A stretch of DNA of 64,000 nucleotides, taken from Patescibacteria group bacterium (GTDB taxonomy: Bacteria > Patescibacteriota > Microgenomatia > 2-02-FULL-39-11). Positions 6,798 to 49,579 of this stretch are shown here, piece by piece. Position numbers and translations under genes: made by a program. The notes beneath the pieces are model-generated. The model ran no database searches. It was given only the letters and a program-made list of their open reading frames with translations, and was not told the DNA's origin. The stretch spans positions 252,908 through 316,907 of the forward strand of contig JAMCUI010000009.1 in assembly GCA_023379265.1 (NCBI GenBank). Direction: 5' to 3'. The first letter of the stretch is position 1; each line of letters starts with the position of its first letter.

Positions 6798-6830
6798 ACT
6801 TGATATTTTGATTAGGTGTTTAGAGTAAAA

Positions 6831-8510: not shown

Positions 8511-8515
8511 ACAGT

Positions 8516-12790: not shown

Positions 12791-12794
12791 TATA

Positions 12795-16084: not shown

Positions 16085-16086
16085 AC

Positions 16087-31222: not shown

Positions 31223-31231
31223 CTTTCCCCT

Positions 31232-31259
31232 TTTACACGACCACCGGTTTTTATATACT
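31232..31259 (+). promoter_or_regulatory. Candidate sigma70-like promoter
   Basis: TTTACA (31232-31237), a 16-nt spacer, then TATACT (31254-31259), in the gap between the stop at 31222 and the ATG at 31279. Confidence 0.35.
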
Positions 31260-31278
31260 TACGTTATTCCATTTGCAT

Positions 31279-32955: not shown

Positions 32956-34236
32956 TCAGAATCTTTTAAGAAATCTTTCTATCATCCTTTTGGTATATTC
33001 GATCATATCAGAGTTTATTCCTGGAAAAACTCCCAACCAGAAAGCTCGCGCCATCACTTCGTCGGCATTTACTATTTTTCCTGCAGTTTTATATTTTATT
33101 TTCAGGTACGCCGGATGCCGCAGAAGGTTTCCTGAAAAGACATTTCTGGTACCTATTCTTTCTTTTTCCAGATATTCAGTAAGCTGATTTCTGGTAAACG
33201 GTGCTTCCTTTCTGACAAGAAGTGGAAATCCAAACCAGCAAGGATCTTCTTTATCTGTTGGAGTAAGAAGTTCGAAGAATTTGATATATTTACTGAAGAA
33301 TTTATATAACTTTTTATAATTCTCTTTCCTTATTTTTATAAAATACGGCAGTTTTGAGAGTTGAGCCAAGCCAATGGCGGCTTGGAAATCCGTAAGTTTC
33401 AGATTGAAACCTATTTGTGAATAGATATATTTATGGTCGTAGCCTGCCGGCAACTCTCCCATCTTCCAGCCAAACCTCTTGCCGCATGTATCATCTTTTC
33501 CCGTATCACACCAGCAGTCCCTGCCCCAGTCGCGAAATTGCCTGATTGAGCGGTGGATAAGGGGGTTATTGGTAACTACCGCTCCTCCTTCACCCATTGT
33601 AATCTGATGAGCAGGATAAAAGGAGAATGTGGATATATCGCCATATGTTCCCACCATTTTCCCGTCATAACGGCTTCCCAAGGCATCGCAGCAGTCCTCA
33701 ATCAACCATAGATGGTATTTTTTGGCTAGTGCCACTATTTTATCCAGATTATAGGGATTACCAAGGGTGTGAGCGACCATTATCAGTTTTGTCTTTTTGG
33801 TTATCGCTTTTTCGATTTTGTCCGTGTCGATGTTAAGAGAAGAAAGTTCGGCGTCCACAAAGACAGGCGTCATGCCAAAGATGATGCCGGGGTTGACGGT
33901 CGTGGGGAAGGCGACAGCGCCGGTAATGAACTCATCACCTTTTTGTAAACGCCTTTCACCAAAAACTTTTGATGTAAGGGAAAAAAAGGCAGCCAGATTG
34001 GCAGAAGAGCCTGAGTTTACCAATGAAACATAACGTACTCCAAGGAAACGCGCGAATTCCCTTTCAAACTCTTTGGCAAATCGTCCTTCTGTCCACCAAC
34101 CATCTTTTGCTGCTGAGACGGCATTTTCTATTTCGTTTTCGTCAAATACTTTTCCAGAAGCTGGAATATAAGTCTTTCCCGGTATAAATGTTGTATCGTA
34201 AGGCATAGAGTATATTAACTTTGTATTATAATACAT
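32956..34236 (-). CDS. ddhC: CDP-6-deoxy-D-xylo-4-hexulose 3-dehydrase (E1; PMP-dependent Fe-S enzyme, DegT/DnrJ/EryC1 superfamily)
   Basis: Collinear with Salmonella RfbH: 'PASGKVF', 'GSSANL', 'AFPTTVNP', 'LIMVAHTLGN' (His in place of the PLP lysine), 'LIEDCCDALG', 'FYPAHQITMGEGGAV' and 'RDWGRDCWCDTGKDDTCGKRFG' (Fe-S cysteine cluster). Confidence 0.85.
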   Translation of the reverse strand: MYYNTKLIYSMPYDTTFIPGKTYIPASGKVFDENEIENAVSAAKDGWWTEGRFAKEFEREFARFLGVRYVSLVNSGSSANLAAFFSLTSKVFGERRLQKGDEFITGAVAFPTTVNPGIIFGMTPVFVDAELSSLNIDTDKIEKAITKKTKLIMVAHTLGNPYNLDKIVALAKKYHLWLIEDCCDALGSRYDGKMVGTYGDISTFSFYPAHQITMGEGGAVVTNNPLIHRSIRQFRDWGRDCWCDTGKDDTCGKRFGWKMGELPAGYDHKYIYSQIGFNLKLTDFQAAIGLAQLSKLPYFIKIRKENYKKLYKFFSKYIKFFELLTPTDKEDPCWFGFPLLVRKEAPFTRNQLTEYLEKERIGTRNVFSGNLLRHPAYLKIKYKTAGKIVNADEVMARAFWLGVFPGINSDMIEYTKRMIERFLKRF

Positions 34237-34265
34237 GGCAATTACTTATAGAAATTAATTTCCAG

Positions 34266-34986: not shown

Positions 34987-36045
34987 TCAAAAAGTAATTA
35001 TTTTATTTTTTAAGCCAAGTTTTTTTATATCTTTTAGAATTTCCTTCTTAAAGCGGAATGAGGAGACGAGTATCGGTTCTTTGTAATTCTCTAGATTTTC
35101 TGGCGGGATTATATCAATTCCTTTTAATTTTTTTCCTTGAAGATTTGTATTCCTATCTGCTAATTTAATAGTTTTTTGGGCAAGATTAGTGGTTGAAAGT
35201 AAGCGTTCGGTAAGAGATCCTGCACCCCAAACAATTATTCTTTCAGGAGCGGCATCAATAACCCGGTTTATCCTATCCATTTTTGATTGTGATAATTGGA
35301 TATACTTGACCATAGAATTTCTTACGCCTCCATCTTTTTGCCACACTGAATAGATAGCCTTCCCGTCTGAAGATACATACAACGGAAAAAATTCATACAT
35401 TAGAGAATGAAGTGAGGATTTGCCAAAAAAATTGATATGTTCCAGTGAAAATTCTCCAAAAGGTTCTTCGAAATTTCTGTAAAAATTATCTGCATCAGGT
35501 ACGCATATGAATATTTTCCCTCCATCATTTATAAGACTGCCCAGTATGTGTATGGCTAAAGTGACTTTATCCAGATGTTCAAGAACGGCCGAAAGAATAA
35601 GGAAGTCATATTTTTTAGTGCCTGATTTCAGGTTGAACAGATCATTTGTTTCTACAGTAATGCCGTATTTCTTTTTTGCCATTTCTTTGCAGCGGGGAGC
35701 GGGGTCGACTCCGGAAAGGTTTTTGAAACCGTCTGTTTTGAGGAGATAAAGGAGATGTCCGGTTGAGCAGCCTATGTCCATGATGCGGTCTGATTTGTTT
35801 ATAAATTGTTCAATTATTTTAACGCAGTCTTTATGCAACTGGAAGTCCCGCGTGTCTTCATATTTTGACATTTTTTCATAATATTTGGCATAGTAAGTCT
35901 GTCTTGGGGAATTATTTACAAAAACAAATCCGCACCTGTTACATAAGGCAATATTATGTATTAGACCACCAACAAATTTCTGCGTAAACAATACGGTATT
36001 ATTTCTGCTGGTACAGATAGGACATGGTCTAACAGTCTGTCTCAT
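34987..36045 (-). CDS. NDP-hexose C-methyltransferase family protein (TylC3/EvaC-like): Zn-ribbon + class I SAM MTase + C-methyltransferase C-terminal domain
   Basis: N-terminal 'CPIC...CNRCGF' four-Cys ribbon. 'IMDIGCSTGHLLYLL...LSGVDPAPRCKEMAKKKYGI' SAM fold. C-terminal 'IIVWGAGSLTERLL...ADRNTNLQGKKLKGIDIIPPENL' resembles the Methyltransf_14 domain. Confidence 0.6.
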   Translation of the reverse strand: MRQTVRPCPICTSRNNTVLFTQKFVGGLIHNIALCNRCGFVFVNNSPRQTYYAKYYEKMSKYEDTRDFQLHKDCVKIIEQFINKSDRIMDIGCSTGHLLYLLKTDGFKNLSGVDPAPRCKEMAKKKYGITVETNDLFNLKSGTKKYDFLILSAVLEHLDKVTLAIHILGSLINDGGKIFICVPDADNFYRNFEEPFGEFSLEHINFFGKSSLHSLMYEFFPLYVSSDGKAIYSVWQKDGGVRNSMVKYIQLSQSKMDRINRVIDAAPERIIVWGAGSLTERLLSTTNLAQKTIKLADRNTNLQGKKLKGIDIIPPENLENYKEPILVSSFRFKKEILKDIKKLGLKNKIITF

Positions 36046-36977
36046 TTATTCTTGTTTCCAATAATTTTATCGATGATATAAGTCGGCCTGGCTTTGGTTT
36101 CTTCCACTATTACCTGTATATATTTGCCTATTATACTGATGGCCAAAAGCTGTATTCCTCCAAAAAAGACGATTGAAACTAATATGGTGACAGCACCCTT
36201 TATTGGGTTGCCGTAAATAATACTTATGAGGATATATAAGATAATAAAAAGAAATGACAAGATTACCAATATGAATCCGAAATAAGCCATCAGATCCAAT
36301 AGTAGGTATGAAAATCCAAATACACCCCTTTCAGCATGCTTAAAGTAATCGAGTATGTTATAAGAACTTTTACCTTTTTTTCTTTTGGGCCGGTCGTACA
36401 AGACATAAGCCGTATCAAATCCTACCCATGCCCTGAGTCCTCTGAAAAATCTGTATTTTTCTGGTAATGATTTGATAGCCTGCTGCACCTTTTTATCCAT
36501 AAGTCCATATCCGCTGGCGTTTACCGGAATTTCGATATTTGATATGAGCTTAAAAATTTTGTAGAAAAGCTTTCTGAAAAATATGGTGATAAAATAGTCA
36601 TCAATCTTTTTATACACTCCAACAACAACCTGGTAACCTTTTTCCCATCTTTTAATAAATTCCTTGATGAGATCCGGAGGGTCTTGAAGGTCTGCAGCAA
36701 AGCCGATTATTGCCTCACCTGTAGCCTGATCATATCCCGCCTGAGCAGAAGCTTCCGCGCCGAAATTTCGTGAAAGGAATATTCCTGTAACCCTTCTATC
36801 TTTTCTGACTATTTTGGAGATTATGTCCCTGGAGTTGTCGCTGCTGCCATTATCCACAAAAACAAATTCATAAGAATATTTGGGAATCTGCTTTGTTACT
36901 CTCAATAGGGTTTTATAAGCATTTTCCAAATTTAATTCTTCGTTGAAGCAGGGGATGACAAAAGAAATTTTCTTCAT
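36042..36977 (-). CDS. Membrane-anchored polyprenyl-phosphate glycosyltransferase (GtrB/ArnC-like GT2 with two C-terminal TM helices)
   Basis: 'ISFVIPCFNEELNL', 'FVFVDNGSSDNS', 'FAADLQDPPDLI' and two C-terminal hydrophobic helices ('FILVILSFLFIILYILISII' and 'VTILVSIVFFGGIQLLAISIIG'). Confidence 0.7.
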   Translation of the reverse strand: MKKISFVIPCFNEELNLENAYKTLLRVTKQIPKYSYEFVFVDNGSSDNSRDIISKIVRKDRRVTGIFLSRNFGAEASAQAGYDQATGEAIIGFAADLQDPPDLIKEFIKRWEKGYQVVVGVYKKIDDYFITIFFRKLFYKIFKLISNIEIPVNASGYGLMDKKVQQAIKSLPEKYRFFRGLRAWVGFDTAYVLYDRPKRKKGKSSYNILDYFKHAERGVFGFSYLLLDLMAYFGFILVILSFLFIILYILISIIYGNPIKGAVTILVSIVFFGGIQLLAISIIGKYIQVIVEETKARPTYIIDKIIGNKNK

Positions 36978-36990
36978 ACGAGGTAAAAAT

Positions 36991-37809
36991 TTATTTTATG
37001 AGATTTCGGATTCTTTTTACTGCCGTCTTAAAACCAGCAAAACCGTCCGTATATCCAAGCCAGATTTCAGGGACGATCATTCCTTTATATTTTTTTAATT
37101 TCTCAAAGATTGGTTTGAAATTTATTTCCCCATCGCCAATTTGCACACCCTCGCCATCCTCACCTGTTGCATCTGCGATGTGAAGATGAGCCATATTCTG
37201 GATAAAAATCTCAAATTGAGCCATAAAATCCTTTTTTGCATAATTACAATACAATTTGGAGTGAGAAATGTCGTAGCAGATTTTTCTTTTTGTAGTTTTG
37301 CAAAACTCACCGATTTCCTCACCATCCATAAATATATTCGAGTTCCATTGCCCACCGAAATACCAGGGAAGAGGAGGCAGATTTTCTACCAGAATTTCAG
37401 AATTTTCGGTTCGTAAGAGAGATAGACTCTTTATGAGCGTTTCCATCCTGTAAATGTTATTCTTGGGTATATCTTTTTCATATGACATGCCTCCGGGATG
37501 CAAGATAAAAATATTTCTTTCATTAGTGAAATAGCTGAAAAATTTTTCGCTTTTAGAAATTATATTTTGCAGAATATCAAGTGATTCATTTAGAGGTAAT
37601 ACCTGATTCTCCGGTTTAATGTTTGAGATGTCTATCAAGTGTCCGCTCCAAAATTCGGGGAGATGGATTATGGCAGGAATAGGATATTTTATTTTTGGGG
37701 AAAAAGGGTAATCTGCATCTTTGTCAGAGAATTGGAATTCCACAAATTCTGGATCAAGTTCCATGACTTGGTCAAAATCTGAAAATCTGGTTTTCAAACC
37801 TATTTTCAT
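36991..37809 (-). CDS. Xylose isomerase-like TIM-barrel protein (sugar phosphate isomerase/epimerase family)
   Basis: 'NMAHLHIADATGEDGEG' (metal-binding H-x-H-x-x-D type) and 'MIVPEIWLGY'. 272 aa. Confidence 0.5.
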   Translation of the reverse strand: MKIGLKTRFSDFDQVMELDPEFVEFQFSDKDADYPFSPKIKYPIPAIIHLPEFWSGHLIDISNIKPENQVLPLNESLDILQNIISKSEKFFSYFTNERNIFILHPGGMSYEKDIPKNNIYRMETLIKSLSLLRTENSEILVENLPPLPWYFGGQWNSNIFMDGEEIGEFCKTTKRKICYDISHSKLYCNYAKKDFMAQFEIFIQNMAHLHIADATGEDGEGVQIGDGEINFKPIFEKLKKYKGMIVPEIWLGYTDGFAGFKTAVKRIRNLIK

Positions 37810-37815
37810 ATCTAA

Positions 37816-38862
37816 TCATTGAATATCGCTATGGATGAAATAATCATTTTTAGCTATATTTCTTTTTGTTTTTTTACCTATAAGCTTATCAATGAGCTGG
37901 GGACTGAGACCTTTACCCGGGCTTTTTACATCAATCATTCTGTGAGTAATTACTTCTCCTGCCTTTATTGGGACTGCGGCCACCAGACTTTTGCCAAAGA
38001 CTTCCCTAGTCAATATTTCCCCTCTGGCTATAGTTCTTATGCCGTTTCCTATTGCCACTTCTGCGACTCGAATTCTGTCCACCATTTTCTTTAACCCTTC
38101 GGGCATGATAGATAAATTATGATCGGGTCCGTCCATAGAGCGGTCAAGCGTAAAATGCTTCTCAATAATGTTTGCTCCCAATGCTACTGCACAGACTGCA
38201 ACAGTGATTCCTCTTTCATGTCCAGAGTAACCTACCGGTACTTTATACGTTTCTTTTAAGACATTAATCATCTTTAAGTTAACATCCTTGAAATTGGCCG
38301 GGTAAGTACTTACGCAATGCATAAGTGCGAATTTAGCTTTGTTTTTGTTGAGAAATTTTACCGTATAGTCTATTTCTGACGGATTTGACATACCTGTTGA
38401 AAGTATTATAGGTTTTTTAGTTTTAATAATTCGATGAATTAATGGTATATTTGTTAGATCTCCAGAGGCGATTTTATATAGAGGAACTTGAAGGGATTCT
38501 AAAAATTCTACGCTTTCCAAATCAAATGGTGTCGCAAAAAAAATAATCCCTATTTCGTCACAGTACTTTTTCAATTCTATATATTCACTTTTATCAAGTT
38601 CATATTTCTTAAATATGGAAAATAGATATACTGTTGATTGACTATCCTGGTTGGGATCGTTGTATACATCTTCTTTGTATATCGCCTTCAAATCCCTTTT
38701 TTGAAACTTTACCGCATCAGCGCCGCTGTCTTTAGCCAGTTTTATCATTTTCTTAGCCAGCGAAAGATTACCGTTATGGTTTAAGCCTATTTCTGCCACT
38801 ACAAATGTAGGATGCCCTTCACCTATCAGTCTTCCGTTTATATTCAGAGTACGGTCATTCAT
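37816..38862 (-). CDS. NeuB-family nonulosonic acid (sialic/pseudaminic/legionaminic-type) synthase with C-terminal SAF domain
   Basis: 'GHPTFVVAEIGLNHNGNLSLAKKMIKLAKDSGADAVKFQKR', 'LMHCVSTYPA' and 'GYSGHERG', plus a C-terminal antifreeze-like domain 'VAAVPIKAGEVIT'. Confidence 0.8.
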   Translation of the reverse strand: MNDRTLNINGRLIGEGHPTFVVAEIGLNHNGNLSLAKKMIKLAKDSGADAVKFQKRDLKAIYKEDVYNDPNQDSQSTVYLFSIFKKYELDKSEYIELKKYCDEIGIIFFATPFDLESVEFLESLQVPLYKIASGDLTNIPLIHRIIKTKKPIILSTGMSNPSEIDYTVKFLNKNKAKFALMHCVSTYPANFKDVNLKMINVLKETYKVPVGYSGHERGITVAVCAVALGANIIEKHFTLDRSMDGPDHNLSIMPEGLKKMVDRIRVAEVAIGNGIRTIARGEILTREVFGKSLVAAVPIKAGEVITHRMIDVKSPGKGLSPQLIDKLIGKKTKRNIAKNDYFIHSDIQ

Positions 38863-38940
38863 AAAAAGTTATTATACATTTTATTTTTTCTTATGACCAG
38901 CTGGCTAATTAAAAACCGATTGTACTGTTACTCTTACACT

Positions 38941-39828
38941 TTATGGATTAAGGTTCTTTTTTTTGAAAATAGATTTGTTATCTAAATAATAACGGTACAG
39001 TTGATCAATTGCTGATGTGAAAGGAGTAAATTTGAAACCTGATAATTCAGACAGTAATCTCTGATTATTACATGTATATTCCATATTATATCCCTGTTTT
39101 AAAATCTTTATGGGATGAGGATTATGTGTAGTTTTTTTAACTATCTCAGCCAGCGAGATTAAATCAATTTTTTCGCCTTTTCCGGCATTGTAGTGAGTAT
39201 ATTTCATGTTGTGAATAAGACAATATTCCACAATTTTTACCAGATCGTCAATGTAAATATAATCGAAAAAGACATTCTGTCTTATAACAACTGGTAAACC
39301 CAGAATTGACCGGCAGATAGCCTGGGAAATAAATCTTCTGGTATAATCCTCGTATTTTCCATAAACTCCAAAAAGTCTCAATACTACCGCATTGTCTGTT
39401 TTCTTCATAATTCTGGAAATGGTATATTTCAGTAGTCCATAATCATCTTTTGGAAGCGATAGACCGCTTTCCTTTTCAGATACATTGATAATTGGTTTTG
39501 ATTTATCGTATTCCGCTCCTGATCCGAAAACTATCACTTTGGTATCAGGATGCCTTTGTTCAAGAAGATTGTAGAAAATAGTCAAATTTTTTCCCAACAT
39601 ATCAGAAGAAAATACTCTTTTATCAGATCCTACATATAAGGCTGCATGAATTATGGCGTCGGGATTGTGTTCTTTCAAATATTCTTTGACTTTTTTCCTG
39701 TCAAGAAGATCTAGTTGCGAGTGTGATGGCGATATGGTGGAGAATTTATGTTTCAATTGTTCTGCAAGGTTATGCCCGATAAAGCCGTTTGCGCCCGTAA
39801 TCAGAATTTTTAAGTTTCTTTTATTCAT
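38941..39828 (-). CDS. NAD(P)-dependent sugar-nucleotide epimerase/reductase (RfbJ/RfbS-size; possible CDP-4-keto-dideoxyhexose reductase)
   Basis: 'KILITGANGFIGHNLAEQL' Rossmann motif. 295 aa. 'HAALYVGS'. Confidence 0.55.
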   Translation of the reverse strand: MNKRNLKILITGANGFIGHNLAEQLKHKFSTISPSHSQLDLLDRKKVKEYLKEHNPDAIIHAALYVGSDKRVFSSDMLGKNLTIFYNLLEQRHPDTKVIVFGSGAEYDKSKPIINVSEKESGLSLPKDDYGLLKYTISRIMKKTDNAVVLRLFGVYGKYEDYTRRFISQAICRSILGLPVVIRQNVFFDYIYIDDLVKIVEYCLIHNMKYTHYNAGKGEKIDLISLAEIVKKTTHNPHPIKILKQGYNMEYTCNNQRLLSELSGFKFTPFTSAIDQLYRYYLDNKSIFKKKNLNP

Positions 39829-39831
39829 ATC

Positions 39832-41013
39832 TCAGACGGCAATGCAGATGGTATCTACAAGTTCATTTGAATAATGTCTAACAAAAAGTTTATATGAAGG
39901 ATTAAGTTTTTTAATAAGAAGTATAAGTTTCCAAAGATCAGCGGCATGGTGGTAAATGGAAATAATAAGTTTAGGTTTTGTTTGTCTGATTATTTTTTTT
40001 GCACCTAACAGCGCTTCCCTTTCAACTCCTTCTATATCCATTTTAATAATAGTAGGTTTTGGTTTATCTCGGAAGAAAAAATCTAATGATGATAGTCTAA
40101 TAGACTTTGTTTTTCCGGCGTTTCCCGCAGCGTGATTATTTGATAAATTTTTCTTAATAATTCGTGAGTCAACTGATGAATTCTCACTAAAATCTATTGT
40201 GCCTTCTTTATAAAACACACCTCTTTTTATTGGAATTATTCTTTTGTGATCAATTTTCCTGGAAATTTTTTGAAGTTTTATATAGTTTGCAGTATCAGGC
40301 TCAAAGGAGTAAATTTTCATGAATTTGTTTTTTACTGTTTTACAAAAACTAAGAACGGTATCACCGTCAAAGGCACCGCAGTCAGCCAGAATTTCCTGAG
40401 AATTTAATTTTAATATACTTTCGTCAAAATAAGTCTTTTTTGACGATTGTGCTAACTTTATATATTTTTTATCCAGTGATAACCTGAATTTGATTAGATT
40501 CTCAAAAATTTTCTTTGAGTTGCTTTCCGTCAGTATTTGTTCAGTTTGCAATATGTCTATTAAGTTTCGCTTGGAAAATAAAGAGTTAAACGTATTTTCA
40601 TATTCTGATGAGATAAATATATCAGGATACAGAATATTTAGATAACCCAGAGGATAAATATACTTAAAACCTGCCTTTTTAAGAAGAGAATAAATTTCAG
40701 ATTCATACATCAGGCTGGCAACAAGAATCGGTGTGGCAAGATACAGTTTTTTGGCTGTGACAAACGAAATGATTTTTGCTTCGCCAATTTTCCTGTCATG
40801 GAGTTTTGGATTGTTATCGACTATCGCTGAAACCTTGATATTTTTTGCCTGGAGATTTTCTACAAATATTTTTCCCATTCTGGCTGCACCAAACACGACA
40901 CAGGGGATATTCCTATTGCATATTAATTCCCTTGGAGGAAAGTGTTCTTGAAGCTGTGAAAGATAGTAATTTTTATTCTTTTCCAATAAATATTTAAGGC
41001 TATTTTTTGTCAT
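39832..41013 (-). CDS. FkbM-family SAM-dependent methyltransferase with N-terminal Rossmann-like domain
   Basis: 'ILADCGAFDGDTVLSF', 'YSFEPDTANY' and 'TIIKMDIEGVEREALLGAKKII' FkbM signature. The N-terminal 'PCVVFGAARMGKI' domain is extra. Confidence 0.65.
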   Translation of the reverse strand: MTKNSLKYLLEKNKNYYLSQLQEHFPPRELICNRNIPCVVFGAARMGKIFVENLQAKNIKVSAIVDNNPKLHDRKIGEAKIISFVTAKKLYLATPILVASLMYESEIYSLLKKAGFKYIYPLGYLNILYPDIFISSEYENTFNSLFSKRNLIDILQTEQILTESNSKKIFENLIKFRLSLDKKYIKLAQSSKKTYFDESILKLNSQEILADCGAFDGDTVLSFCKTVKNKFMKIYSFEPDTANYIKLQKISRKIDHKRIIPIKRGVFYKEGTIDFSENSSVDSRIIKKNLSNNHAAGNAGKTKSIRLSSLDFFFRDKPKPTIIKMDIEGVEREALLGAKKIIRQTKPKLIISIYHHAADLWKLILLIKKLNPSYKLFVRHYSNELVDTICIAV

Positions 41014-42814
41014 AAGAAAGTGGCTTGGCTATCATATTTTTGAAAAAAATTTCCCTTGGCAGATAAGGATACATATCCTCAAGCGGTTTTGAAATCATAC
41101 TGCCGTCTGGTAAAACTTCAGAACCGATTCTGGGTATAATTTCAACAGAAGGCGCCATGTTTACACGGCAAAGTACCGGACCTTTGTGTTCTAGAACTTT
41201 TTTTATACCTCTATGTAAATCGTTATGATTTTTTATTTCGATAAAGTGCATTCCGTAAGCGTAAGCAATTTTTGAAAGGTTAGGTATAACTACTCCTGAG
41301 TTGGCATCTGAGGCAAAAAACCTCTGGCCTGCAAATTTTTTTTGAGTATTTCTTATGGATAAATAACCCTTATTGTCATAAACAAAAATCTTTAGTGGTA
41401 GTTCGTAAGTGATGAGAGTCTGGAGTTCATGAATATTAAACTGTAGTGAACCGTCACCCACAATCACAATAACTGGTTTTTTACCGGAGGCGATACTGGC
41501 GCCGATACCTGAAGGTAGTTCATAACCCATCGGGCCGCAGCCGATATTGGCTAGGAATCTTTGGTTTTTTTTCAGTCTAGCCATAAGGAAGGCGGTGGCT
41601 GAAGTGACACCGCTGCAGGTAGTTAAAATATCTCCTTCCTTAAAATAAGAAGATAGTGTATGCATAAAAAAGTAGGGGTTGACATATTTATCGCCATCTT
41701 TTAGGTATTGCGGAAGAATTTTTGGAAAGAGCGTTGTCCACCTTTTACACTTGGTTACCCAAACATCATACTCTGGTAATTTTGATTTTTCAGATTGTTG
41801 GATTAATTCTTCGATAAAAACTTTTGCATCCGCTTCTACTTTCATATATGGATTGACTGTTTTTTTATTCAGTTCATTTGCATCAATATTTACAAAAATA
41901 ATCTTTGCTTCTCTAGCAAAAGCCTGATAATTAAAACCGGTGGTTTTGAAGTTTAACCTGGCGCCAATACTGAGAACTAAATCACTATTTTGAATTATAA
42001 AATTTGCGGTTCTGTCCCCGATTATGCCGGGGTTTCCGAAATACAAAGGATATTCTTCATACATCAGGTCATTGGCGCACGAGGCCGTCAATACCGGTAT
42101 TTTTAGTATATTTACCAATTTTAGAAATGACTTGTAAGCTCCAGAAATCCTAATTCCGTTTCCAGCCAGGATGACTGGCCGGTTGGATTTTTGGAGTAAT
42201 TTTAATATTTCGTTGATAGAGTCAGAGATACTTTTTGAAGTGGTTCGATTAGTCTCTAATTCTTCAGGATCAAATTTTACCATCGATTTTTCCTCTATCT
42301 GGTGCGCCTGGATATCCAACGGAACATCAATCCAAACGGGTCCTGGGCGGCCTGTTGTGGCAAGATAAATTGCTTTTTCCAGATGATAGCGGATGCTTTG
42401 CGGATCTGTAATTCTTACAGCATATTTTGTAACGGGTTTCACGATATCAGTGATATTCAGTTCCTGTTCACCAAGCTGGCGCAAATCTGAGCCTTCCGCG
42501 GAAATTTCTGTCCTGACCTGACCGGATATATAAAGTGCCGGGACTGAATCCTGCCATTGGCAGACGATTCCAGTAAGTGAGTTACTGCCTCCGGGACCTC
42601 CCGTGACTACACAGACACCCAGTTTTCCTGTAATCTTGGAGTAAGCTTCAGCAGCCATGGCAGCTGCCTGTTCGTGGAAGGTGCAATAGTATTTTATTTT
42701 TTTACTTCTGCCGAATGAATCATTCAGATGCATTGCCAAACCGCCGGAGATCATAAAAATATCTCTGACGCCGTAATTTTCCAGGAATCGGACAATATAG
42801 TCACTGAGTTTCAT
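41000..42814 (-). CDS. ThDP-dependent acetolactate-synthase-like enzyme (YerE-like sugar-nucleotide C-branching carboligase candidate)
   Basis: 604 aa. N-terminal Pyr domain 'GGLAMHL...HEQAAAMAAEAY...GVCVVTGGPGGSNSLTG'. C-terminal ThDP-binding 'VIVIVGDGSLQFNIHELQTLITYELPLKIFVYDNKGY' (GDG...N motif). Adjacent to the ddh genes and an SDR. ThDP-enzyme family confidence is about 0.85; the specific role about 0.5. Confidence 0.6.
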   Translation of the reverse strand: MKLSDYIVRFLENYGVRDIFMISGGLAMHLNDSFGRSKKIKYYCTFHEQAAAMAAEAYSKITGKLGVCVVTGGPGGSNSLTGIVCQWQDSVPALYISGQVRTEISAEGSDLRQLGEQELNITDIVKPVTKYAVRITDPQSIRYHLEKAIYLATTGRPGPVWIDVPLDIQAHQIEEKSMVKFDPEELETNRTTSKSISDSINEILKLLQKSNRPVILAGNGIRISGAYKSFLKLVNILKIPVLTASCANDLMYEEYPLYFGNPGIIGDRTANFIIQNSDLVLSIGARLNFKTTGFNYQAFAREAKIIFVNIDANELNKKTVNPYMKVEADAKVFIEELIQQSEKSKLPEYDVWVTKCKRWTTLFPKILPQYLKDGDKYVNPYFFMHTLSSYFKEGDILTTCSGVTSATAFLMARLKKNQRFLANIGCGPMGYELPSGIGASIASGKKPVIVIVGDGSLQFNIHELQTLITYELPLKIFVYDNKGYLSIRNTQKKFAGQRFFASDANSGVVIPNLSKIAYAYGMHFIEIKNHNDLHRGIKKVLEHKGPVLCRVNMAPSVEIIPRIGSEVLPDGSMISKPLEDMYPYLPREIFFKNMIAKPLSYDKK

Positions 42815-42898: not shown

Positions 42899-43696
42899 CT
42901 AGTGGATAGTCCAGCCGCCGTCAACAAGAAGATTGTGTCCGGTAATGTATCCCGAGATGTCCGAAGCCAAGAATAGAGTTGGTCCGACTAAATCATCTGG
43001 ACTTGCCATTCTACCCAATGGAGTAAGTTTTTCATAATTTTTGATAAAGTCGGGATTTTGATTGGCTTTTACTCCGCCAGGACTTATACAATTGACTCTG
43101 ATGTCGTATTTCCCAAAATATGAAGCGAAATATTTTGTCATCATATTTACTCCACCTTTGATAAGAGCATAAGGGGAAGGTGAGGTCATTTCCGTATTGT
43201 TATAAATGGAGAATGTCGGTGCTACCGTACCATATATGGAACTGAAATTTATAATGTTTCCTCCTTGTGGAGATTTATTTTTCATATAAACGGCAATTTT
43301 TTGAGTACAGTGGTAATAACCGCCCAGATGCATGGCAAGATTTTTCTCTACAGATGAGTAGGGCATTTCTTCAACGTTTTTTGACCAATCCTCGGTTTTG
43401 GGCCAGCTGCAGTTGATAAAAACCTCAATTTTTCCCATTTTCTGGCAGGAAAATTCAATTAATTCATCAATTGATTTTTCTTTGGTCGTATCGAATTTAT
43501 AAAATATCACTTTATTTTTTGAAGATGTATTCACCTTTTCCAGAAATTTCTGATCAGTATTTACGTCGGCAATGATAAGTTTAGATCCAGAAGAGGAAAA
43601 TCCTTTAGCGAGAACTTTACCGATAAGTCCCATTCCGCCCACAATGAGTATAGGTTTATCCTGCAGATCTGAGAAATTATATTTATTTTTATCCAT
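42899..43696 (-). CDS. Short-chain dehydrogenase/reductase (SDR), YerF-like reductase candidate
   Basis: 'ILIVGGMGLIGKVLAKGF' (TGxxxGxG-like), 'NFSSIYG' and 'SPYALIKGG' (YxxxK). 265 aa. Confidence 0.7.
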   Translation of the reverse strand: MDKNKYNFSDLQDKPILIVGGMGLIGKVLAKGFSSSGSKLIIADVNTDQKFLEKVNTSSKNKVIFYKFDTTKEKSIDELIEFSCQKMGKIEVFINCSWPKTEDWSKNVEEMPYSSVEKNLAMHLGGYYHCTQKIAVYMKNKSPQGGNIINFSSIYGTVAPTFSIYNNTEMTSPSPYALIKGGVNMMTKYFASYFGKYDIRVNCISPGGVKANQNPDFIKNYEKLTPLGRMASPDDLVGPTLFLASDISGYITGHNLLVDGGWTIH

Positions 43697-43733: not shown

Positions 43734-44744
43734 TCAAACTATTACACTATCCATATCGATTATTCTTTTATACTTAATCGAATCATGTGTTGCTAAAAGA
43801 AGTCTCAAGTTGGCAATTCCATCTTCAAGAGATATGGATGGATGCTTTTTATTTTTGACCTTATCAATAAATTCTTTCACTTCATCATAAAACATATTAT
43901 TTCTATTAAAACCTTTTGAATAGTCGATTACTTGTTTTCTTGGCTGATCTTCTTTTTTGTTTTTGTTGAAAATATATAATTTATTGGCAAAAAAATCTAG
44001 TTCTATACGGCCCTTATCTCCAACTATTTCCCAATATCTTTTAGGCGGGTCAAGAATATAGTCAAGATGTATTTCGGCGAGAGTGTTACTACTATATTTC
44101 ATAAGTATTTCGACATTGTCTTCAGTATTTACTCCTGTAAGTGATTTTTTACCGTTCAGAGCAATTACACACGTGGGTAGACCGAAATACCAATAAAGTA
44201 TATCCAGATCATGACAGAGAGTGTTAATCGGACCTCCGCCCAATTCTTTATTTGCCGCATAGCTTTTCTTGTAATTTTCCCAAGGATGCCAGTTTGGTAG
44301 AAACTCGCCCCAGATTACGCGTGAATATACGGGATTTCCTATAATTTTATTCTTAAGAATTTTTTTGATTCTTATAAAGGCCGGGTGATAACGGTGCATA
44401 AAGCCAATTTGGACAATTAGTTCTTTTTGTCTGACAATTTCCTGCAGTTTTTTTACTCCTTCTGTGCTATCTGATAAAGGTTTTTCTATAAAAAGGTGAC
44501 AATCTGCCTGGGCCAGTTTATTTGCCAGGTCTATATGGAGTGAGGAAGGGTTAGTGATAAAAGCAACGTCGGGTTTTTGCTTTATAGCATCTCCGAAATC
44601 CGAAAAGGTTTTAATCTCTTGTCTGACAAATCTTAACGGTTGGGTAGTGGTGCGGTAGGCGATAATATCCTTTTCGCCCATTTTTAATAGATTGTTTAAA
44701 TGTTGTTGTCCGATTGATCCTAGACCGCAAAAAAGAAATTTCAT
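43734..44744 (-). CDS. Gfo/Idh/MocA-family NAD(P)-dependent oxidoreductase
   Basis: 'MKFLFCGLGSIGQQHLNNL' and 'LFIEKPLSDSTEGVKKL' (EKP motif). 336 aa. Confidence 0.7.
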   Translation of the reverse strand: MKFLFCGLGSIGQQHLNNLLKMGEKDIIAYRTTTQPLRFVRQEIKTFSDFGDAIKQKPDVAFITNPSSLHIDLANKLAQADCHLFIEKPLSDSTEGVKKLQEIVRQKELIVQIGFMHRYHPAFIRIKKILKNKIIGNPVYSRVIWGEFLPNWHPWENYKKSYAANKELGGGPINTLCHDLDILYWYFGLPTCVIALNGKKSLTGVNTEDNVEILMKYSSNTLAEIHLDYILDPPKRYWEIVGDKGRIELDFFANKLYIFNKNKKEDQPRKQVIDYSKGFNRNNMFYDEVKEFIDKVKNKKHPSISLEDGIANLRLLLATHDSIKYKRIIDMDSVIV

Positions 44745-45716: not shown

Positions 45717-45717
45717 C

Positions 45718-49577: not shown

Positions 49578-49579
49578 TT

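What the first reader, a model, noticed from the sequence alone, without database searches (positions are those of the whole stretch)
36991..41013. NeuB-family nonulosonate synthase embedded in the CDP-deoxysugar island without the usual companion genes
ORF 37816-38862 is a clear NeuB/PseI/LegI-type PEP-condensing synthase with a SAF domain. Upstream on the same strand are an FkbM methyltransferase and an RfbJ/RfbS-sized NAD(P) reductase. Downstream are a xylose-isomerase-like TIM-barrel protein and a membrane GtrB/ArnC-like enzyme. The window has no CMP-nonulosonate cytidylyltransferase (NeuA/PseF/LegF), no PseB/PseC/LegB/LegC-type dehydratase or aminotransferase, and no UDP-GlcNAc 2-epimerase. 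Either those genes lie elsewhere, or this NeuB homolog condenses PEP with a different aldose here, possibly a deoxy or branched sugar made by the adjacent pathway, yielding an unusual higher-carbon sugar acid. The 3-nt-spaced TIM-barrel partner is also atypical for nonulosonate clusters.
Basis: partly seen in the sequence, partly recalled or inferred. Interest (0 to 1): 0.6.

Follow-up and report, generated by a model that had tools for sequence, protein, structure and literature searches.

The report
NeuB–TIM module in branched-sugar cluster
A sialic-acid-synthase-like enzyme and its obligate TIM-barrel partner sit inside a gene cluster for a carbon-branched deoxysugar in an uncultured (Patescibacteria-labelled) bacterium, where they probably supply the long keto-acid side chain instead of making a conventional sialic-acid-like sugar.

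Summary
On the minus strand lie an FkbM methyltransferase, an SDR reductase, a NeuB+SAF synthase (37816-38862), a xylose-isomerase-like TIM barrel (36991-37809) and a membrane GT2. No NeuA or NeuC gene occurs in the 64 kb window or 10 kb beyond it.

Three new points:
- **The TIM barrel marks a NeuB clade.** In 78 of 80 related genomic loci it is fused to NeuB (72) or lies directly downstream (6). All 79 such NeuBs keep the catalytic residues but carry Asp for Glu134 and Gly/Ser for Arg314.
- **It probably replaces a phosphatase.** In three of four sister-clade loci a KdsC/Kdn-9-P-type HAD phosphatase lies just downstream of NeuB (directly after it in two). The TIM barrel also keeps most endonuclease-IV metal ligands.
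- **The neighbouring ThDP enzyme is YerE-like.** It scores 416 bits to JanthE. With RfbF/RfbG-like genes, a genuine E1 (RfbH), reductases and methyltransferases, the module matches published acyl-branched-sugar clusters. The pyruvate aldolase is missing and NeuB-TIM stands in its place, in 11 independent loci and the window, none with NeuA.

Best reading (about 0.42): NeuB-TIM makes a 3-deoxy-2-ulosonic acid that the YerE-like enzyme grafts onto a CDP-4-keto-dideoxyhexose. The main rival is an ordinary split nonulosonate pathway. I rate it a new variant of a known kind.

The parts
45718..46497 (-). Sugar-1-phosphate nucleotidyltransferase, glucose-1-phosphate cytidylyltransferase-like (RfbF/DdhA-like)
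   Evidence: PF00483 E 1.9e-22. Its best NCBIfam model is TIGR02623 G1P_cyt_trans at 256.8 bits, below the 300 cut-off. Present in 9 of 11 related loci.
44745..45716 (-). NDP-hexose 4,6-dehydratase, CDP-glucose 4,6-dehydratase-like (RfbG/DdhB-like)
   Evidence: GDP_Man_Dehyd/Epimerase domains. Its best NCBIfam model is TIGR02622 CDP_4_6_dhtase at 213 bits, below the 278 cut-off. The mechanical ORF runs to 45866 and overlaps the upstream gene, so the start at 45716 is inferred.
43734..44744 (-). Gfo/Idh/MocA oxidoreductase (PtmF-like companion of ulosonate clusters)
   Evidence: PF01408, PF02894 and PF22725. Homologs sit next to NeuB-TIM or NeuB-HAD in L005, L009, L010, L076, L085, L090 and L092-L097. 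Its role here is inferred only.
42899..43696 (-). Classical SDR, PtmA-like; candidate side-chain or aldose oxidoreductase
   Evidence: adh_short_C2 E 7.6e-41. NCBIfam PRK09186 scores 250.3 (cut-off 255) and FlagModPtmA 197 (cut-off 350). Conserved in the module.
41000..42814 (-). YerE-like ThDP-dependent carboligase (C-branching enzyme)
   Evidence: All three TPP_enzyme domains are present. The best solved structure is 8rph (JanthE, a YerE-like enzyme) at 415.9 bits, E 1.8e-123, over the full length, against at most 247 bits for acetolactate synthases. PMC12188165 identifies 8rph as JanthE. In the NJ tree it groups with JanthE and the aldolase-linked YerE-like enzymes, far from E. coli IlvI.
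39832..41013 (-). FkbM-family SAM methyltransferase
   Evidence: PF05050 E 7.5e-13; TIGR01444 at 65.6 bits, above its cut-off. Present in 10 of 11 related loci.
38941..39828 (-). Extended SDR, RmlD/GDP-fucose-synthase-like reductase (candidate YerF-type ketoreductase)
   Evidence: Epimerase E 1.5e-28 and RmlD_sub_bind E 5.5e-14. Present in all 11 related loci. The YerF-like role is inferred.
37816..38862 (-). NeuB-family PEP-condensing 3-deoxy-2-ulosonate synthase with SAF domain; Arg314-less, Asp134 type
   Evidence: PF03102 E 1.4e-91 and SAF E 1.9e-9. It is below the NeuB_NnaB and PseI equivalog cut-offs. PEP, metal and catalytic residues are conserved, while Glu134 is Asp and Arg314 is Ser. 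It belongs to the TIM-associated clade.
36991..37809 (-). Xylose-isomerase-like TIM barrel of the MJ1311/endonuclease-IV-like kind; proposed metal-dependent ulosonate-phosphate phosphatase
   Evidence: - PF01261 E 6.4e-15.
- AF2 model has pLDDT 92.5.
- Profile search gives MJ1311 at E 8.6e-14.
- hhalign to E. coli Nfo gives 93% probability with aligned metal ligands.
- It is fused to or adjacent to NeuB in 78 of 80 loci.
- It occupies the position taken by a KdsC-type HAD in the sister clade.
36042..36977 (-). Membrane GT2 of the polyprenyl-phosphate glycosyltransferase type (GtrB/ArnC/PgfS-like)
   Evidence: PF00535 E 1.9e-27. NCBIfam PgfS scores 222.8 and ArnC 131.2, both below their cut-offs. 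It has C-terminal hydrophobic segments. Present in 7 of 11 related loci.
34987..36045 (-). Class I SAM methyltransferase (Methyltransf_23) with an N-terminal Cys-rich segment
   Evidence: PF13489 E 2.3e-20. Present in 8 of 11 related loci.
32956..34236 (-). RfbH/DdhC: CDP-6-deoxy-4-hexulose 3-dehydrase (E1)
   Evidence: NCBIfam NF011936 RfbH scores 635.3 bits, above the 423 cut-off. It has His210 in place of the PLP lysine and an exact C-X57-C-X-C-X7-C motif. That these two features are E1 hallmarks comes from my own knowledge of the Liu-lab work.

Best explanation
The NeuB gene and the TIM-barrel gene form one conserved two-part enzyme module.

**NeuB step.** NeuB condenses PEP with an aldose that is not ManNAc or a diacetamido-trideoxyhexose. 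The aldose is most likely phosphorylated, so the product is a 3-deoxy-2-ulosonic acid phosphate.

**TIM step.** The TIM barrel is a metal-dependent enzyme with an endonuclease-IV/MJ1311-like ligand set. It most likely removes the phosphate, doing the job that a KdsC/Kdn-9-P-type HAD phosphatase does next to the sister NeuB clade.

**Fate of the acid.** In most lineages the free acid is then CMP-activated by an adjacent NeuA-like enzyme. In the window's lineage that enzyme is absent. The module is instead embedded in a YerE-type acyl-branched-sugar cluster:
1. RfbF-like and RfbG-like enzymes plus a genuine E1 (RfbH) make CDP-4-keto-3,6-dideoxyhexose.
2. The YerE-like ThDP enzyme decarboxylates the NeuB-TIM 2-keto acid and adds the resulting polyhydroxyacyl unit to C-4.
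3. SDRs reduce the new ketone, and the FkbM and Methyltransf_23 enzymes methylate.
4. The GtrB-like GT2 loads the CDP-sugar onto polyprenyl phosphate, for transfer by the many GT-C paralogs in the window.

NeuB-TIM thus replaces the pyruvate aldolase of the published scheme.

**Shown:** gene identities, the obligate NeuB-TIM pairing, the active-site signature, the YerE-like identity, the conserved 12-gene module, and the local absence of NeuA and of any aldolase.

**Inferred:** the phosphorylated substrate, the phosphatase activity, the donor relationship to the ThDP enzyme, and every downstream step.
For: **1. The pairing is obligate.** Of 80 genomic loci found with the TIM profile, 72 encode NeuB-SAF-TIM fusions and 6 have NeuB directly upstream. 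Most of the best 150 of about 238 family representatives (E<=1e-30) are fusions of about 620-775 aa.

**2. The NeuB clade has its own signature.** In 79 of 79 TIM-associated NeuBs the PEP, metal and catalytic residues are invariant, Glu134 is Asp, and Arg314 is Gly, Ser, Thr or Val. Both changes are reported for eukaryotic synthases (Arg to Val), and E134D also for archaeal ones. That paper suggests E134D may relate to use of ManNAc-6-P (PMC8208679).

**3. A phosphatase holds the TIM position in the sister clade.**
- Three of four Arg-less sister-clade NeuB loci carry a 153-161 aa HAD downstream of NeuB. It directly follows NeuB in two loci and lies one gene further in the third. The neighbours are alike: CTP_transf_3, GFO, SDR, DegT, Aminotran_3.
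- One such HAD scores 179 bits on the KdsC family model (cut-off 107) and 173.5 on the Kdn-9-P phosphatase model (cut-off 180).
- A KdsC-like HAD occurs in only 1 of about 100 NeuB-TIM loci.

**4. The TIM barrel has Endo-IV-like ligands.** The TIM profile aligns to E. coli Nfo at 93% probability. H104, E142, D180, H183, H210 and E248 fall on Nfo H109, E145, D179, H182, H216 and E261. The closest structure is MJ1311.

**5. The ThDP enzyme is YerE-like.** It scores 416 bits to JanthE against at most 247 to acetolactate synthases.

**6. The cluster matches the published scheme.** That scheme needs CDP-4-keto-3,6-dideoxyglucose genes, a YerE-like enzyme, a reductase, an aldolase that makes a 4-hydroxy-2-keto acid donor, and optionally a methyltransferase (PMC9306805). 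The window has everything except the aldolase: no HMGL-like or HpcH protein appears in any Pfam scan. NeuB makes exactly that class of acid.

**7. A comparator keeps the aldolase.** The more distant YerE-like loci L099-L101 have an HMGL-like aldolase directly upstream of the ThDP gene and no NeuB-TIM.

**8. The module is conserved.** Eleven distinct loci and the window carry NeuB-TIM. The ten loci long enough to show the region also carry the YerE-like enzyme. None has CTP_transf_3. Gene order is rearranged but content is kept. Their ThDP enzymes form one clade.

**9. RfbH is a true E1**.
Against: - There is no biochemical evidence for any step.
- YerE-like enzymes have been shown to accept 4-hydroxy-2-keto acids of C4-C6 and linear acids up to C8 (PMC9306805). 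Polyhydroxylated C7-C9 ulosonic acids, which exist mostly as cyclic hemiketals, have not been tested.
- Lack of NeuA nearby is not unique to this lineage. Of 39 other NeuB-TIM loci with at least 5 kb on each side, 17 also lack CTP_transf_3 within 10 kb.
- The rest of the genome could not be searched.
- Locus L111 has a YerE-like gene, a SAF-less NeuB and CTP_transf_3 together. Mere co-location of the two systems therefore occurs.
- No E3 reductase gene was found, and the RfbF-like and RfbG-like proteins score below their equivalog cut-offs.
- The Endo IV D229/H231 pair is not conserved in register.
- The related loci share ancestry, so their co-occurrence counts are not independent events.
Confidence: 0.42

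Rival explanations
1. Ordinary split nonulosonate pathway. NeuB-TIM makes a sialic-acid-like ulosonic acid that a NeuA-type enzyme encoded elsewhere in the genome activates with CMP. The YerE-like enzyme independently makes a yersiniose-like C2-branched sugar from pyruvate. The two sugars merely end up in the same glycan.
For: - In 22 of 41 well-flanked NeuB-TIM loci a CTP_transf_3 gene is present, within 3 kb in 19 of them. CMP activation is therefore the usual fate of the product.
- Seventeen non-YerE loci also lack it locally, so split arrangements seem common.
- L111 shows a YerE-like gene, NeuB and CTP_transf_3 side by side.
- YerE itself uses pyruvate (PMC9306805).
- PtmA-like and PtmF-like genes are typical of legionaminic acid clusters.
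Against: - No CTP_transf_3 occurs in 74 kb of glycan island, nor in any of the 11 related loci.
- These loci always keep NeuB-TIM together with the YerE-like gene, despite rearrangement.
- No aldolase or other donor-forming gene is present.
- The NeuB-TIM-linked ThDP enzymes form their own clade.
Confidence: 0.3
2. The TIM barrel is a sugar isomerase or epimerase, as its Pfam family name suggests. It would prepare the aldose for NeuB by ketose-to-aldose isomerisation or 2-epimerisation, analogous to KdsD before KdsA or NeuC before NeuB. This rival concerns the role of the TIM protein only and is compatible with either fate of the product.
For: - The Pfam family is AP_endonuc_2, with weak NCBIfam hits to hydroxypyruvate isomerase and L-ribulose-5-P 3-epimerase.
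- The generic Glu-Asp-His-Glu metal quartet is present.
- WecB/NeuC-type 2-epimerases are found in only 1 of 86 loci, so an epimerising step may be needed.
Against: - The positional replacement is by a KdsC-type phosphatase in the sister clade, not by an isomerase.
- The extra invariant residues H49, H104, H183, D218 and E220 go beyond the epimerase quartet and match Endo IV/MJ1311 positions.
- The NeuB changes at Glu134 and Arg314 match those reported for eukaryotic synthases (E134D also for archaeal ones), which that paper tentatively links to ManNAc-6-P use.
Confidence: 0.3
3. The TIM barrel is an NDP-sugar hydrolase, a functional analog of PseG or LegG. It would free the deoxysugar made by the adjacent CDP pathway, and NeuB would then condense that sugar with PEP into a higher-carbon sugar acid.
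For: - An Endo-IV-like metal site would suit phosphodiester cleavage.
- Pelagibacteraceae and Desulfobacterota loci combine NeuB-TIM with a dehydratase-type SDR, a DegT aminotransferase and an acetyltransferase, but have no PseG/LegG/NeuC-type gene.
- A nucleotidyltransferase and a 4,6-dehydratase are present in nine of the eleven related loci.
Against: - This leaves the YerE-like enzyme without a special donor, and the final acid without any activating enzyme.
- Minimal loci such as that of Desulfofustis glycolicus have NeuB-TIM and CTP_transf_3 but no recognisable NDP-sugar pathway.
- The sister clade uses a sugar-acid phosphate phosphatase.
Confidence: 0.12
4. NeuB adds PEP directly to the C-4 keto group of the CDP-4-keto sugar, giving a shewanellose-like 4-C-(2-oxo-propanoate) branch. 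The ThDP enzyme then decarboxylates that branch.
For: The support is chemical plausibility only. Shewanellose carries a 3-carbon pyruvate-derived branch at C-4 (from my own memory of the literature). An Asn-synthase-like amidotransferase lies nearby at 49580-51532.
Against: - All known NeuB-family enzymes use free open-chain aldoses.
- Most members of this clade sit with CMP-transferases that act on free ulosonic acids.
- No evidence was found that the family binds a nucleotide.
Confidence: 0.03

Closest known systems
NeuB / PseI / LegI nonulosonate synthases (Pfam PF03102 + SAF; N. meningitidis NeuB 1XUZ, C. jejuni PseI 8H2C)
   Same: It has the same two-domain architecture. The PEP-binding, metal-binding and catalytic residues are all conserved (E25, K53, Q55, K129, S132, S154, Y186, S213, H215, E234, H236, D247). 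Similarity to the NeuB and PseI structures is about equal, at 184-190 bits.
   Different: - It scores below both NCBIfam equivalog cut-offs.
- It forms a separate clade.
- Arg314, which contacts the aldose from the SAF domain, is Ser, and Glu134 is Asp.
- It has an obligate TIM-barrel partner or fusion.
- No NeuA, NeuC, PseG or LegG gene is nearby.
Sugar-phosphate-dependent ulosonate routes: eukaryotic NANS/NANP and Bacteroides thetaiotaomicron Kdn-9-P synthase with Kdn-9-P phosphatase (KdsC-type HAD)
   Same: The proposed logic is the same: PEP plus an aldose phosphate gives an ulosonate phosphate, then the free acid. The Glu134Asp change and the loss of Arg314 match what PMC8208679 reports for eukaryotic synthases, and E134D also for archaeal ones. 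The sister clade has the KdsC/Kdn-9-P-type phosphatase next to NeuB.
   Different: The proposed phosphatase is a xylose-isomerase-like TIM barrel, not a HAD enzyme. Its activity is untested and the aldose is unknown.
Acyl-branched sugar clusters: YerE/YerF (yersiniose), ErwE/F/I/J (erwiniose), MMAR_2331-2333 (caryophyllose), MygE/F/I (gastriose); Steitz et al. 2022, PMC9306805
   Same: The shared parts are the genes for the CDP-4-keto-3,6-dideoxyhexose acceptor (including a true E1), a YerE-like ThDP enzyme, NAD(P)H reductases, SAM methyltransferases and a glycosyltransferase.
   Different: - The donor-forming pyruvate aldolase (BphI/HpaI/citrate-lyase type) is absent, and a PEP-dependent NeuB plus TIM module stands in its place.
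- No E3 reductase gene is present.
- The predicted branch would be longer and more hydroxylated than any described.
- The host is an uncultured Patescibacteria-labelled lineage.
MJ1311 (PDB 3WQO) and endonuclease IV (Nfo)
   Different: MJ1311 has no known function and is not linked to NeuB. In the TIM family the Nfo D229/H231 pair is replaced by an invariant D218/E220 in a shorter loop. Nothing suggests DNA repair.

Membership tests
NeuB family (PF03102) nonulosonate or ulosonate synthases | NeuB TIM-barrel domain followed by a SAF domain | tested here: met
   PF03102 E 1.4e-91 over residues 39-275, and PF08666 E 1.9e-9 over residues 292-341.
NeuB family (PF03102) nonulosonate or ulosonate synthases | Conserved PEP-binding, metal-binding and catalytic residues (N. 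meningitidis E25, K53, Q55, K129, S132, S154, Y186, S213, H215, E234, H236, D247) | tested here: met
   All are identical in the window protein and in 79 of 79 TIM-associated homologs.
N-acetylneuraminate/legionaminate synthase (NCBIfam TIGR03569) and pseudaminate synthase (TIGR03586) equivalogs | Score above the curated equivalog cut-off | tested here: not met
   NeuB_NnaB scores 372.6 against 399.65, and PseI scores 283.3 against 340.25. The same holds for N. maritimus, D. glycolicus and sister-clade homologs.
N-acetylneuraminate/legionaminate synthase (NCBIfam TIGR03569) and pseudaminate synthase (TIGR03586) equivalogs | Arg314 (SAF domain) and Glu134 that contact the N-acetylated aldose | tested here: not met
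   Arg314 is Ser and Glu134 is Asp. Across 79 family members the first position is G/S/T/V and the second is Asp.
Canonical nonulosonate gene cluster (NAB-1/2/3: NeuA, NeuB, NeuC or PseG/LegG) | CMP-ulosonate synthetase (PF02348) and a hydrolysing 2-epimerase or NDP-sugar hydrolase near the synthase | tested here: not met
   No PF02348 or PF02350 appears in any window ORF. The HMM and WecB six-frame searches are empty. The 10 kb beyond the window has none. The rest of the genome was not testable.
YerE-type acyl-branched sugar biosynthetic cluster (Steitz et al. 2022) | YerE-like ThDP-dependent carboligase | tested here: met
   415.9 bits over the full length to JanthE (8rph), against at most 247 bits to acetolactate synthases. 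It clusters with JanthE and aldolase-linked YerE-like enzymes. No direct comparison with YerE or ErwE was possible, because those sequences are not held.
YerE-type acyl-branched sugar biosynthetic cluster (Steitz et al. 2022) | Genes for CDP-4-keto-3,6-dideoxy-D-glucose (DdhA-D) | tested here: inconclusive
   RfbH/DdhC is above its cut-off and has the E1 His and Fe-S motif. The DdhA-like and DdhB-like proteins best match their models but fall below the cut-offs. No DdhD/E3 reductase was found.
YerE-type acyl-branched sugar biosynthetic cluster (Steitz et al. 2022) | Pyruvate aldolase that makes the 4-hydroxy-2-keto acid donor | tested here: not met
   No HMGL-like, HpcH or DHDPS protein occurs in the window. 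The comparator loci L099-L101 do have an HMGL-like aldolase next to the ThDP gene. NeuB is the only enzyme in the module that forms a keto acid.
YerE-type acyl-branched sugar biosynthetic cluster (Steitz et al. 2022) | NAD(P)H reductase for the acyl branch, plus a glycosyltransferase | tested here: met
   SDRs at 38941-39828 and 42899-43696 and a GT2 at 36042-36977 are present. Which SDR acts on the branch is inferred.
YerE-type acyl-branched sugar biosynthetic cluster (Steitz et al. 2022) | A C-4 acyl- or hydroxyalkyl-branched 3,6-dideoxyhexose in the glycan | not testable with these tools
   This needs chemical analysis of the glycan or of the nucleotide-sugar pool.
Xylose-isomerase-like TIM barrel (PF01261) / endonuclease IV-like metalloenzymes | Fold and the Glu-Asp-His-Glu metal quartet | tested here: met
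Xylose-isomerase-like TIM barrel (PF01261) / endonuclease IV-like metalloenzymes | All nine Endo IV zinc ligands | tested here: inconclusive
   Six align in register (H109, E145, D179, H182, H216, E261). H69 probably corresponds to H49, just outside the aligned region. D229 and H231 are not conserved in register.
KdsC / Kdn-9-P phosphatase (HAD type C0) | HAD fold with the DxD motif | tested here: not met
   The partner protein is a TIM barrel. The claim is functional analogy only, based on positional replacement.

The most novel reading that the evidence does not exclude
Two linked novelties remain possible.

1. A widespread NeuB clade, found in SAR11, Nitrosopumilus, Desulfobacterota, Saccharibacteria and other candidate-phyla bacteria, is permanently coupled to an endonuclease-IV-like TIM barrel. 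That barrel would be a new, non-HAD class of sugar-acid phosphate phosphatase, and the clade's ulosonic acid product is still unknown.

2. In one Patescibacteria-labelled lineage the module no longer feeds a CMP-transferase. It would instead supply a polyhydroxylated C7-C9 2-keto acid to a YerE-like ThDP enzyme. The product would be a CDP-3,6-dideoxyhexose with an unprecedentedly long C-4 branch (about 13-15 carbons in all), displayed through a polyprenyl-phosphate and GT-C route.
Probability: 0.3. Interest if true: 0.75.

Novelty: new variant of a known kind. Interest (0 to 1): 0.6.

Why it matters
- **A missing donor source.** The published scheme for long-branched bacterial sugars needs a keto-acid donor and has so far used only pyruvate aldolases to make it. 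A PEP-dependent NeuB-type synthase in that role would widen the range of predictable branched sugars. It would also give biocatalysis a route to polyhydroxylated donors for ThDP carboligases.
- **A correctable annotation.** The NeuB-TIM fusion family is annotated everywhere as 'N-acetylneuraminate synthase'. Its active-site signature and its partner suggest a different, probably phosphorylated, substrate, so predictions of sialic acid in marine and subsurface microbes (SAR11, Nitrosopumilus, sulfate reducers) may be wrong.
- **A possible new phosphatase class.** A TIM-barrel replacement for the KdsC-type phosphatase would be a clear case of non-orthologous displacement and would suggest a function for the orphan MJ1311-like proteins.
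- **An unexpected investment.** Bacteria labelled Patescibacteria, with their small genomes, would be devoting more than 70 kb to an elaborate surface glycan.

Tried and rejected
- **Placement in PseI, LegI or NeuB: rejected.** The protein is below both equivalog cut-offs and lies outside the Arg-bearing clades. No separate LegI model exists in NCBIfam, and no LegI or NANS reference sequences were available, so the tree uses only N. meningitidis NeuB, C. jejuni PseI and Leptospira NeuB sequences transcribed from PDB alignments, plus database homologs.
- **TIM barrel as a chance or atypical neighbour: rejected**.
- **Search for NeuA and NeuC.** A custom HMM and E. coli KdsB and WecB seeds found nothing in the window or in six of the eleven related loci (L001, L003, L007-L010). 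The remaining five were checked for CTP_transf_3 at E<=1e-5 on called ORFs.
- **Literature.** Searches for a NeuB plus xylose-isomerase-like fusion, for MJ1311, and for YerE-like enzymes with NeuB found no prior description. The MJ1311 structure paper and Krug et al. 2024 (an in-silico survey of more than 200 YerE-like clusters) are not held. I therefore cannot exclude that NeuB-type donors were noted there.
- It was rebuilt as A2.
- **Absence of NeuA as a unique mark of this lineage: weakened.** Of 39 other well-flanked NeuB-TIM loci, 17 also lack it.
- **Not pursued.** tRNA search was empty and composition was uniform, so there was no sign of a mobile element or recent transfer.
- **Shewanellose-like direct branching by NeuB.** Considered, and kept only as a low-probability rival.

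Full report
**1. What is in the sequence**

The region lies in a run of minus-strand genes. In order of transcription:

| Coordinates | Product |
|---|---|
| 45718-46497 | nucleotidyltransferase, best model glucose-1-P cytidylyltransferase |
| 44745-45716 | 4,6-dehydratase, best model CDP-glucose 4,6-dehydratase |
| 43734-44744 | Gfo/Idh/MocA oxidoreductase |
| 42899-43696 | classical SDR, PtmA-like |
| 41000-42814 | three-domain ThDP enzyme |
| 39832-41013 | FkbM methyltransferase |
| 38941-39828 | RmlD-like SDR |
| 37816-38862 | NeuB + SAF |
| 36991-37809 | AP_endonuc_2 TIM barrel, 6 nt after the NeuB stop codon |
| 36042-36977 | GtrB/ArnC/PgfS-like membrane GT2 |
| 34987-36045 | Methyltransf_23 methyltransferase |
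| 32956-34236 | RfbH, lying beyond one plus-strand GT2 |

The rest of the window holds only glycosyltransferases, about a dozen GT-C type membrane proteins, a Wzm/Wzt transporter, a carbamoyltransferase and an Asn-synthase-like amidotransferase.

- There is no PF02348 cytidylyltransferase and no PF02350 2-epimerase.
- A purpose-built CTP_transf_3 HMM and E. coli WecB find nothing in six-frame fragments.
- Ten more kb downstream on the same contig contain only glycosyltransferases and methyltransferases.
- The NeuB and TIM proteins are identical to NCBI proteins from a 'Patescibacteria group bacterium' MAG.

**2. The TIM barrel is the hallmark of a NeuB clade**

A profile of TIM homologs retrieved 80 loci from species-representative genomes.
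- In 72 of them the TIM domain is the C-terminal part of a NeuB-SAF-TIM fusion of about 620-660 aa.
- In 6 it lies directly downstream of NeuB, as in the window and in Nitrosopumilus maritimus SCM1. Two loci are truncated.
- Hosts include Desulfobacterota (among them the cultured Desulfofustis glycolicus and Desulfamplus magnetovallimortis), Saccharibacteria and other candidate-phyla bacteria, Pelagibacteraceae, Planctomycetota, Armatimonadota, and Methanosarcinales and Woesearchaeota archaea.
- An exhaustive profile search of 1.84 billion representatives finds 238 clusters at E<=1e-30. Most are fusions, including a class of about 750 aa with an extra CBS-like N-terminal domain.

In a neighbour-joining tree the TIM-associated NeuBs form one clade. 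It is separate from N. meningitidis NeuB, C. jejuni PseI, Leptospira NeuB and Arg-bearing clostridial NeuBs. No support values were computed.

The window protein scores below both NCBIfam equivalog cut-offs. All 79 clade members keep every PEP, metal and catalytic residue, but have Asp for Glu134 and Gly, Ser, Thr or Val for Arg314. A Lys usually follows three residues later. Arg314 is the SAF-domain residue mutated in PDB 4IPI and 4IPJ. Both changes are reported for eukaryotic synthases (Arg to Val) and E134D also for archaeal ones. The authors suggest E134D may relate to ManNAc-6-P use (PMC8208679).

**3. What the TIM barrel probably does**

*Structure.* The AF2 model is confident (pLDDT 92.5).
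- By sequence, the nearest solved protein is MJ1311 (E 8.6e-14 with the profile).
- Structure alone therefore does not decide the chemistry.

*Metal ligands.* A profile comparison with E. coli Nfo (93% probability) places the invariant H104, E142, D180, H183, H210 and E248 on Nfo ligands H109, E145, D179, H182, H216 and E261. The D229/H231 pair is replaced by an invariant D218/E220. From memory, the MJ1311 paper reports all nine Endo IV zinc ligands without a DNA groove. I could not retrieve that paper.

*Comparative evidence, which is stronger.* The sister clade of Arg-less NeuBs carries a 153-161 aa HAD gene just downstream of NeuB in three of four loci examined. It directly follows NeuB in two and lies one gene further in the third.
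- These loci share companions with the TIM clade: CTP_transf_3, Gfo/Idh/MocA, PtmA-like SDR, DegT, Aminotran_3.
- One of these HADs scores 179 bits on the KdsC-family model (cut-off 107) and 173.5 on the Kdn-9-P phosphatase model (cut-off 180).
- Such a HAD occurs in only one of about 100 NeuB-TIM loci.
- WecB/NeuC-type epimerases occur in one of 86 loci.

The simplest reading is non-orthologous displacement. NeuB of this super-clade uses a phosphorylated aldose, and the TIM barrel dephosphorylates the product. An isomerase or epimerase role, or an NDP-sugar hydrolase role, is not excluded.

**4. Why there is no NeuA here**

CTP_transf_3 is present in 22 of 41 well-flanked NeuB-TIM loci, usually within 3 kb. 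CMP activation is thus the common fate of the product.

The window belongs to a sub-lineage (TIM identity 59-91%) with a different constant companion, the ThDP enzyme.
- That enzyme matches JanthE (PDB 8rph) at 416 bits over its full length, against at most 247 bits for acetolactate synthases.
- JanthE is a characterised YerE-like carboligase (PMC12188165 and PMC12247030).

Steitz et al. (PMC9306805) showed that longer-branched sugars such as erwiniose, caryophyllose and gastriose arise in a common way. A YerE-like enzyme decarboxylates a functionalised 4-hydroxy-2-keto acid, made by a cluster-encoded pyruvate aldolase, and adds it to CDP-4-keto-3,6-dideoxyglucose. A reductase and sometimes a methyltransferase follow.

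The window module has each of these parts.
- It has a genuine E1: RfbH scores above its cut-off, has His in place of the PLP lysine, and carries an exact C-X57-C-X-C-X7-C motif.
- It has no aldolase. NeuB is the only enzyme present that makes a 4-hydroxy-2-keto (3-deoxy-2-ulosonic) acid.

Several comparisons support the link.
- Close relatives of the ThDP enzyme from metagenomes (64-68% identity) all carry NeuB, TIM, the GFO, both SDRs and FkbM, with the nucleotidyltransferase, dehydratase and RfbH. The orientation of the NeuB-TIM pair differs between loci.
- Together with the loci found through NeuB and TIM, this makes eleven distinct loci and the window. None has CTP_transf_3.
- Their ThDP enzymes form one clade next to JanthE.
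- The next YerE-like group (43-44% identity, L099-L101) shows the textbook arrangement of nucleotidyltransferase, dehydratase, RfbH, HMGL-like aldolase and ThDP enzyme, and has no NeuB-TIM.

I therefore propose that NeuB-TIM has replaced the aldolase as the donor supplier. This explains why no CMP-transferase is needed: the final sugar is already CDP-activated through its hexose part. The GtrB-like GT2 and the many GT-C paralogs would then move it to an extracytoplasmic acceptor via polyprenyl phosphate. That last step is inferred from the families only.

**5. Weaknesses**

- Nothing here is biochemical.
- Polyhydroxylated C7-C9 ulosonic acids have not been tested as YerE-type donors and are mostly cyclic in solution.
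- Seventeen other NeuB-TIM loci also lack a nearby NeuA. One locus (L111) has a YerE-like gene, a SAF-less NeuB and CTP_transf_3 together.
- The rest of the genome is unsearched.
- E3 is missing, and the first two CDP-pathway enzymes score below their equivalog cut-offs.
- The related loci are not phylogenetically independent, the trees are neighbour-joining without support values, and taxonomic labels of near-identical modules disagree (Patescibacteria versus Gammaproteobacteria MAGs).
- The in-silico survey of YerE-like clusters by Krug et al. 2024 could not be read, so my novelty claim is limited to the literature I could search.

**6. Verdict**

The finding is real and more interesting than a stray NeuB. 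It exposes an uncharacterised, widespread NeuB-TIM enzyme family with a distinctive active site. In this window that family appears to have been recruited into a YerE-type C-branched sugar pathway.

Relative to known systems it is a new variant of a known kind, on two counts: a NeuB-type synthase with a new partner, and an acyl-branched-sugar cluster with a new donor source.

| Reading | Confidence |
|---|---|
| Integrated mechanism (NeuB-TIM feeds the YerE-like enzyme) | 0.42 |
| Split nonulosonate pathway | about 0.3 |

Interest: 0.6.

Noticed in passing
window 3497-5809, 6816-19316, 22580-24232, 26203-27399, 31192-32934: About a dozen GT-C type membrane glycosyltransferase paralogs (PMT_2, PMT, YfhO, PIG-V-like; one has no Pfam hit). 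Eight of them form a head-to-tail array, and several GtrB-like GT2 genes lie among them. This is an unusually large polyprenyl-phosphate-sugar decoration system for a genome labelled Patescibacteria.
   Followed up: partly
L001 1090-6204 (GCA_040960175.1, JBFOMP010000106.1): Next to the NeuB-TIM/YerE-like set lies a second set: a SAF-less NeuB (377 aa), a HAD hydrolase, a 3-dehydroquinate-synthase-like protein and a second YerE-like ThDP enzyme. This suggests another keto-acid-derived, perhaps carbocyclic, branched sugar.
   Followed up: partly
L111 302-6850 (MDTF01003699.1): A YerE-like ThDP gene, an unknown 543 aa protein, a Gfo/Idh/MocA protein, a SAF-less NeuB (284 aa) and CTP_transf_3 lie in one row. 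This is a second, independent association of a YerE-like enzyme with a NeuB-family enzyme, here with a cytidylyltransferase.
   Followed up: partly
L099-L101 (e.g. L099 4596-10614): A textbook acyl-branched sugar cluster: nucleotidyltransferase, 4,6-dehydratase, RfbH, HMGL-like aldolase, then the YerE-like enzyme. A phosphoribosyltransferase-domain protein, a weak CTP_transf_3 protein, an SDR and a HAD follow.
   Followed up: partly
L005 (Nitrosopumilus maritimus SCM1, CP000866.1 130544-151593): The NeuB, TIM, epimerase and CTP_transf_3 genes, with a class III aminotransferase, lie beside PEP mutase, a split phosphonopyruvate decarboxylase, an Fe-ADH, a cupin/HTH protein and sulfatases. From memory, this looks like the methylphosphonate cluster, so the unknown ulosonic acid may belong to the same phosphonate-decorated glycan.
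   Followed up: no
L059 5459-16690 (Desulfofustis glycolicus DSM 9705): The NeuB-SAF-TIM fusion sits with CTP_transf_3 and four proteins without Pfam hits, right beside a FliK-like gene and two PilZ genes. This hints at flagellin glycosylation in a culturable organism that could serve as an experimental model.
   Followed up: no
P0224, P0229, P0246 and about 40 other representatives: A subclass of about 730-775 aa has an N-terminal domain of about 125 aa. It resembles the CBS part of the CBS-GHMP kinase of L004 and precedes NeuB-SAF-TIM.
   Followed up: partly
L007, L010 versus L008, L009, P0001, P0121: Near-identical modules (TIM identity 91% and 60%) are deposited under 'uncultured Gammaproteobacteria' MAG names, while others are labelled Patescibacteria. 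The taxonomic labels of these bins are inconsistent.
   Followed up: no
window 46678-51532: A carbamoyltransferase (NodU-like) and an Asn-synthase-type amidotransferase are transcribed divergently from the module. A carbamoyltransferase also lies between NeuB and the HAD phosphatase in the sister-clade locus L127, so carbamoylation or amidation of the sugar acid is possible.
   Followed up: no
window 44745-45866, 45703-46341 and 34221-34973: Three mechanical ORF artefacts:
- The dehydratase ORF has a 50-residue N-terminal extension that overlaps the upstream gene.
- A 212 aa plus-strand ORF lies antisense to the nucleotidyltransferase gene.
- The TTG start of the plus-strand GT2 overlaps the RfbH start by 16 nt.

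No E3 (DdhD/AscD) reductase gene accompanies the E1.
   Followed up: partly
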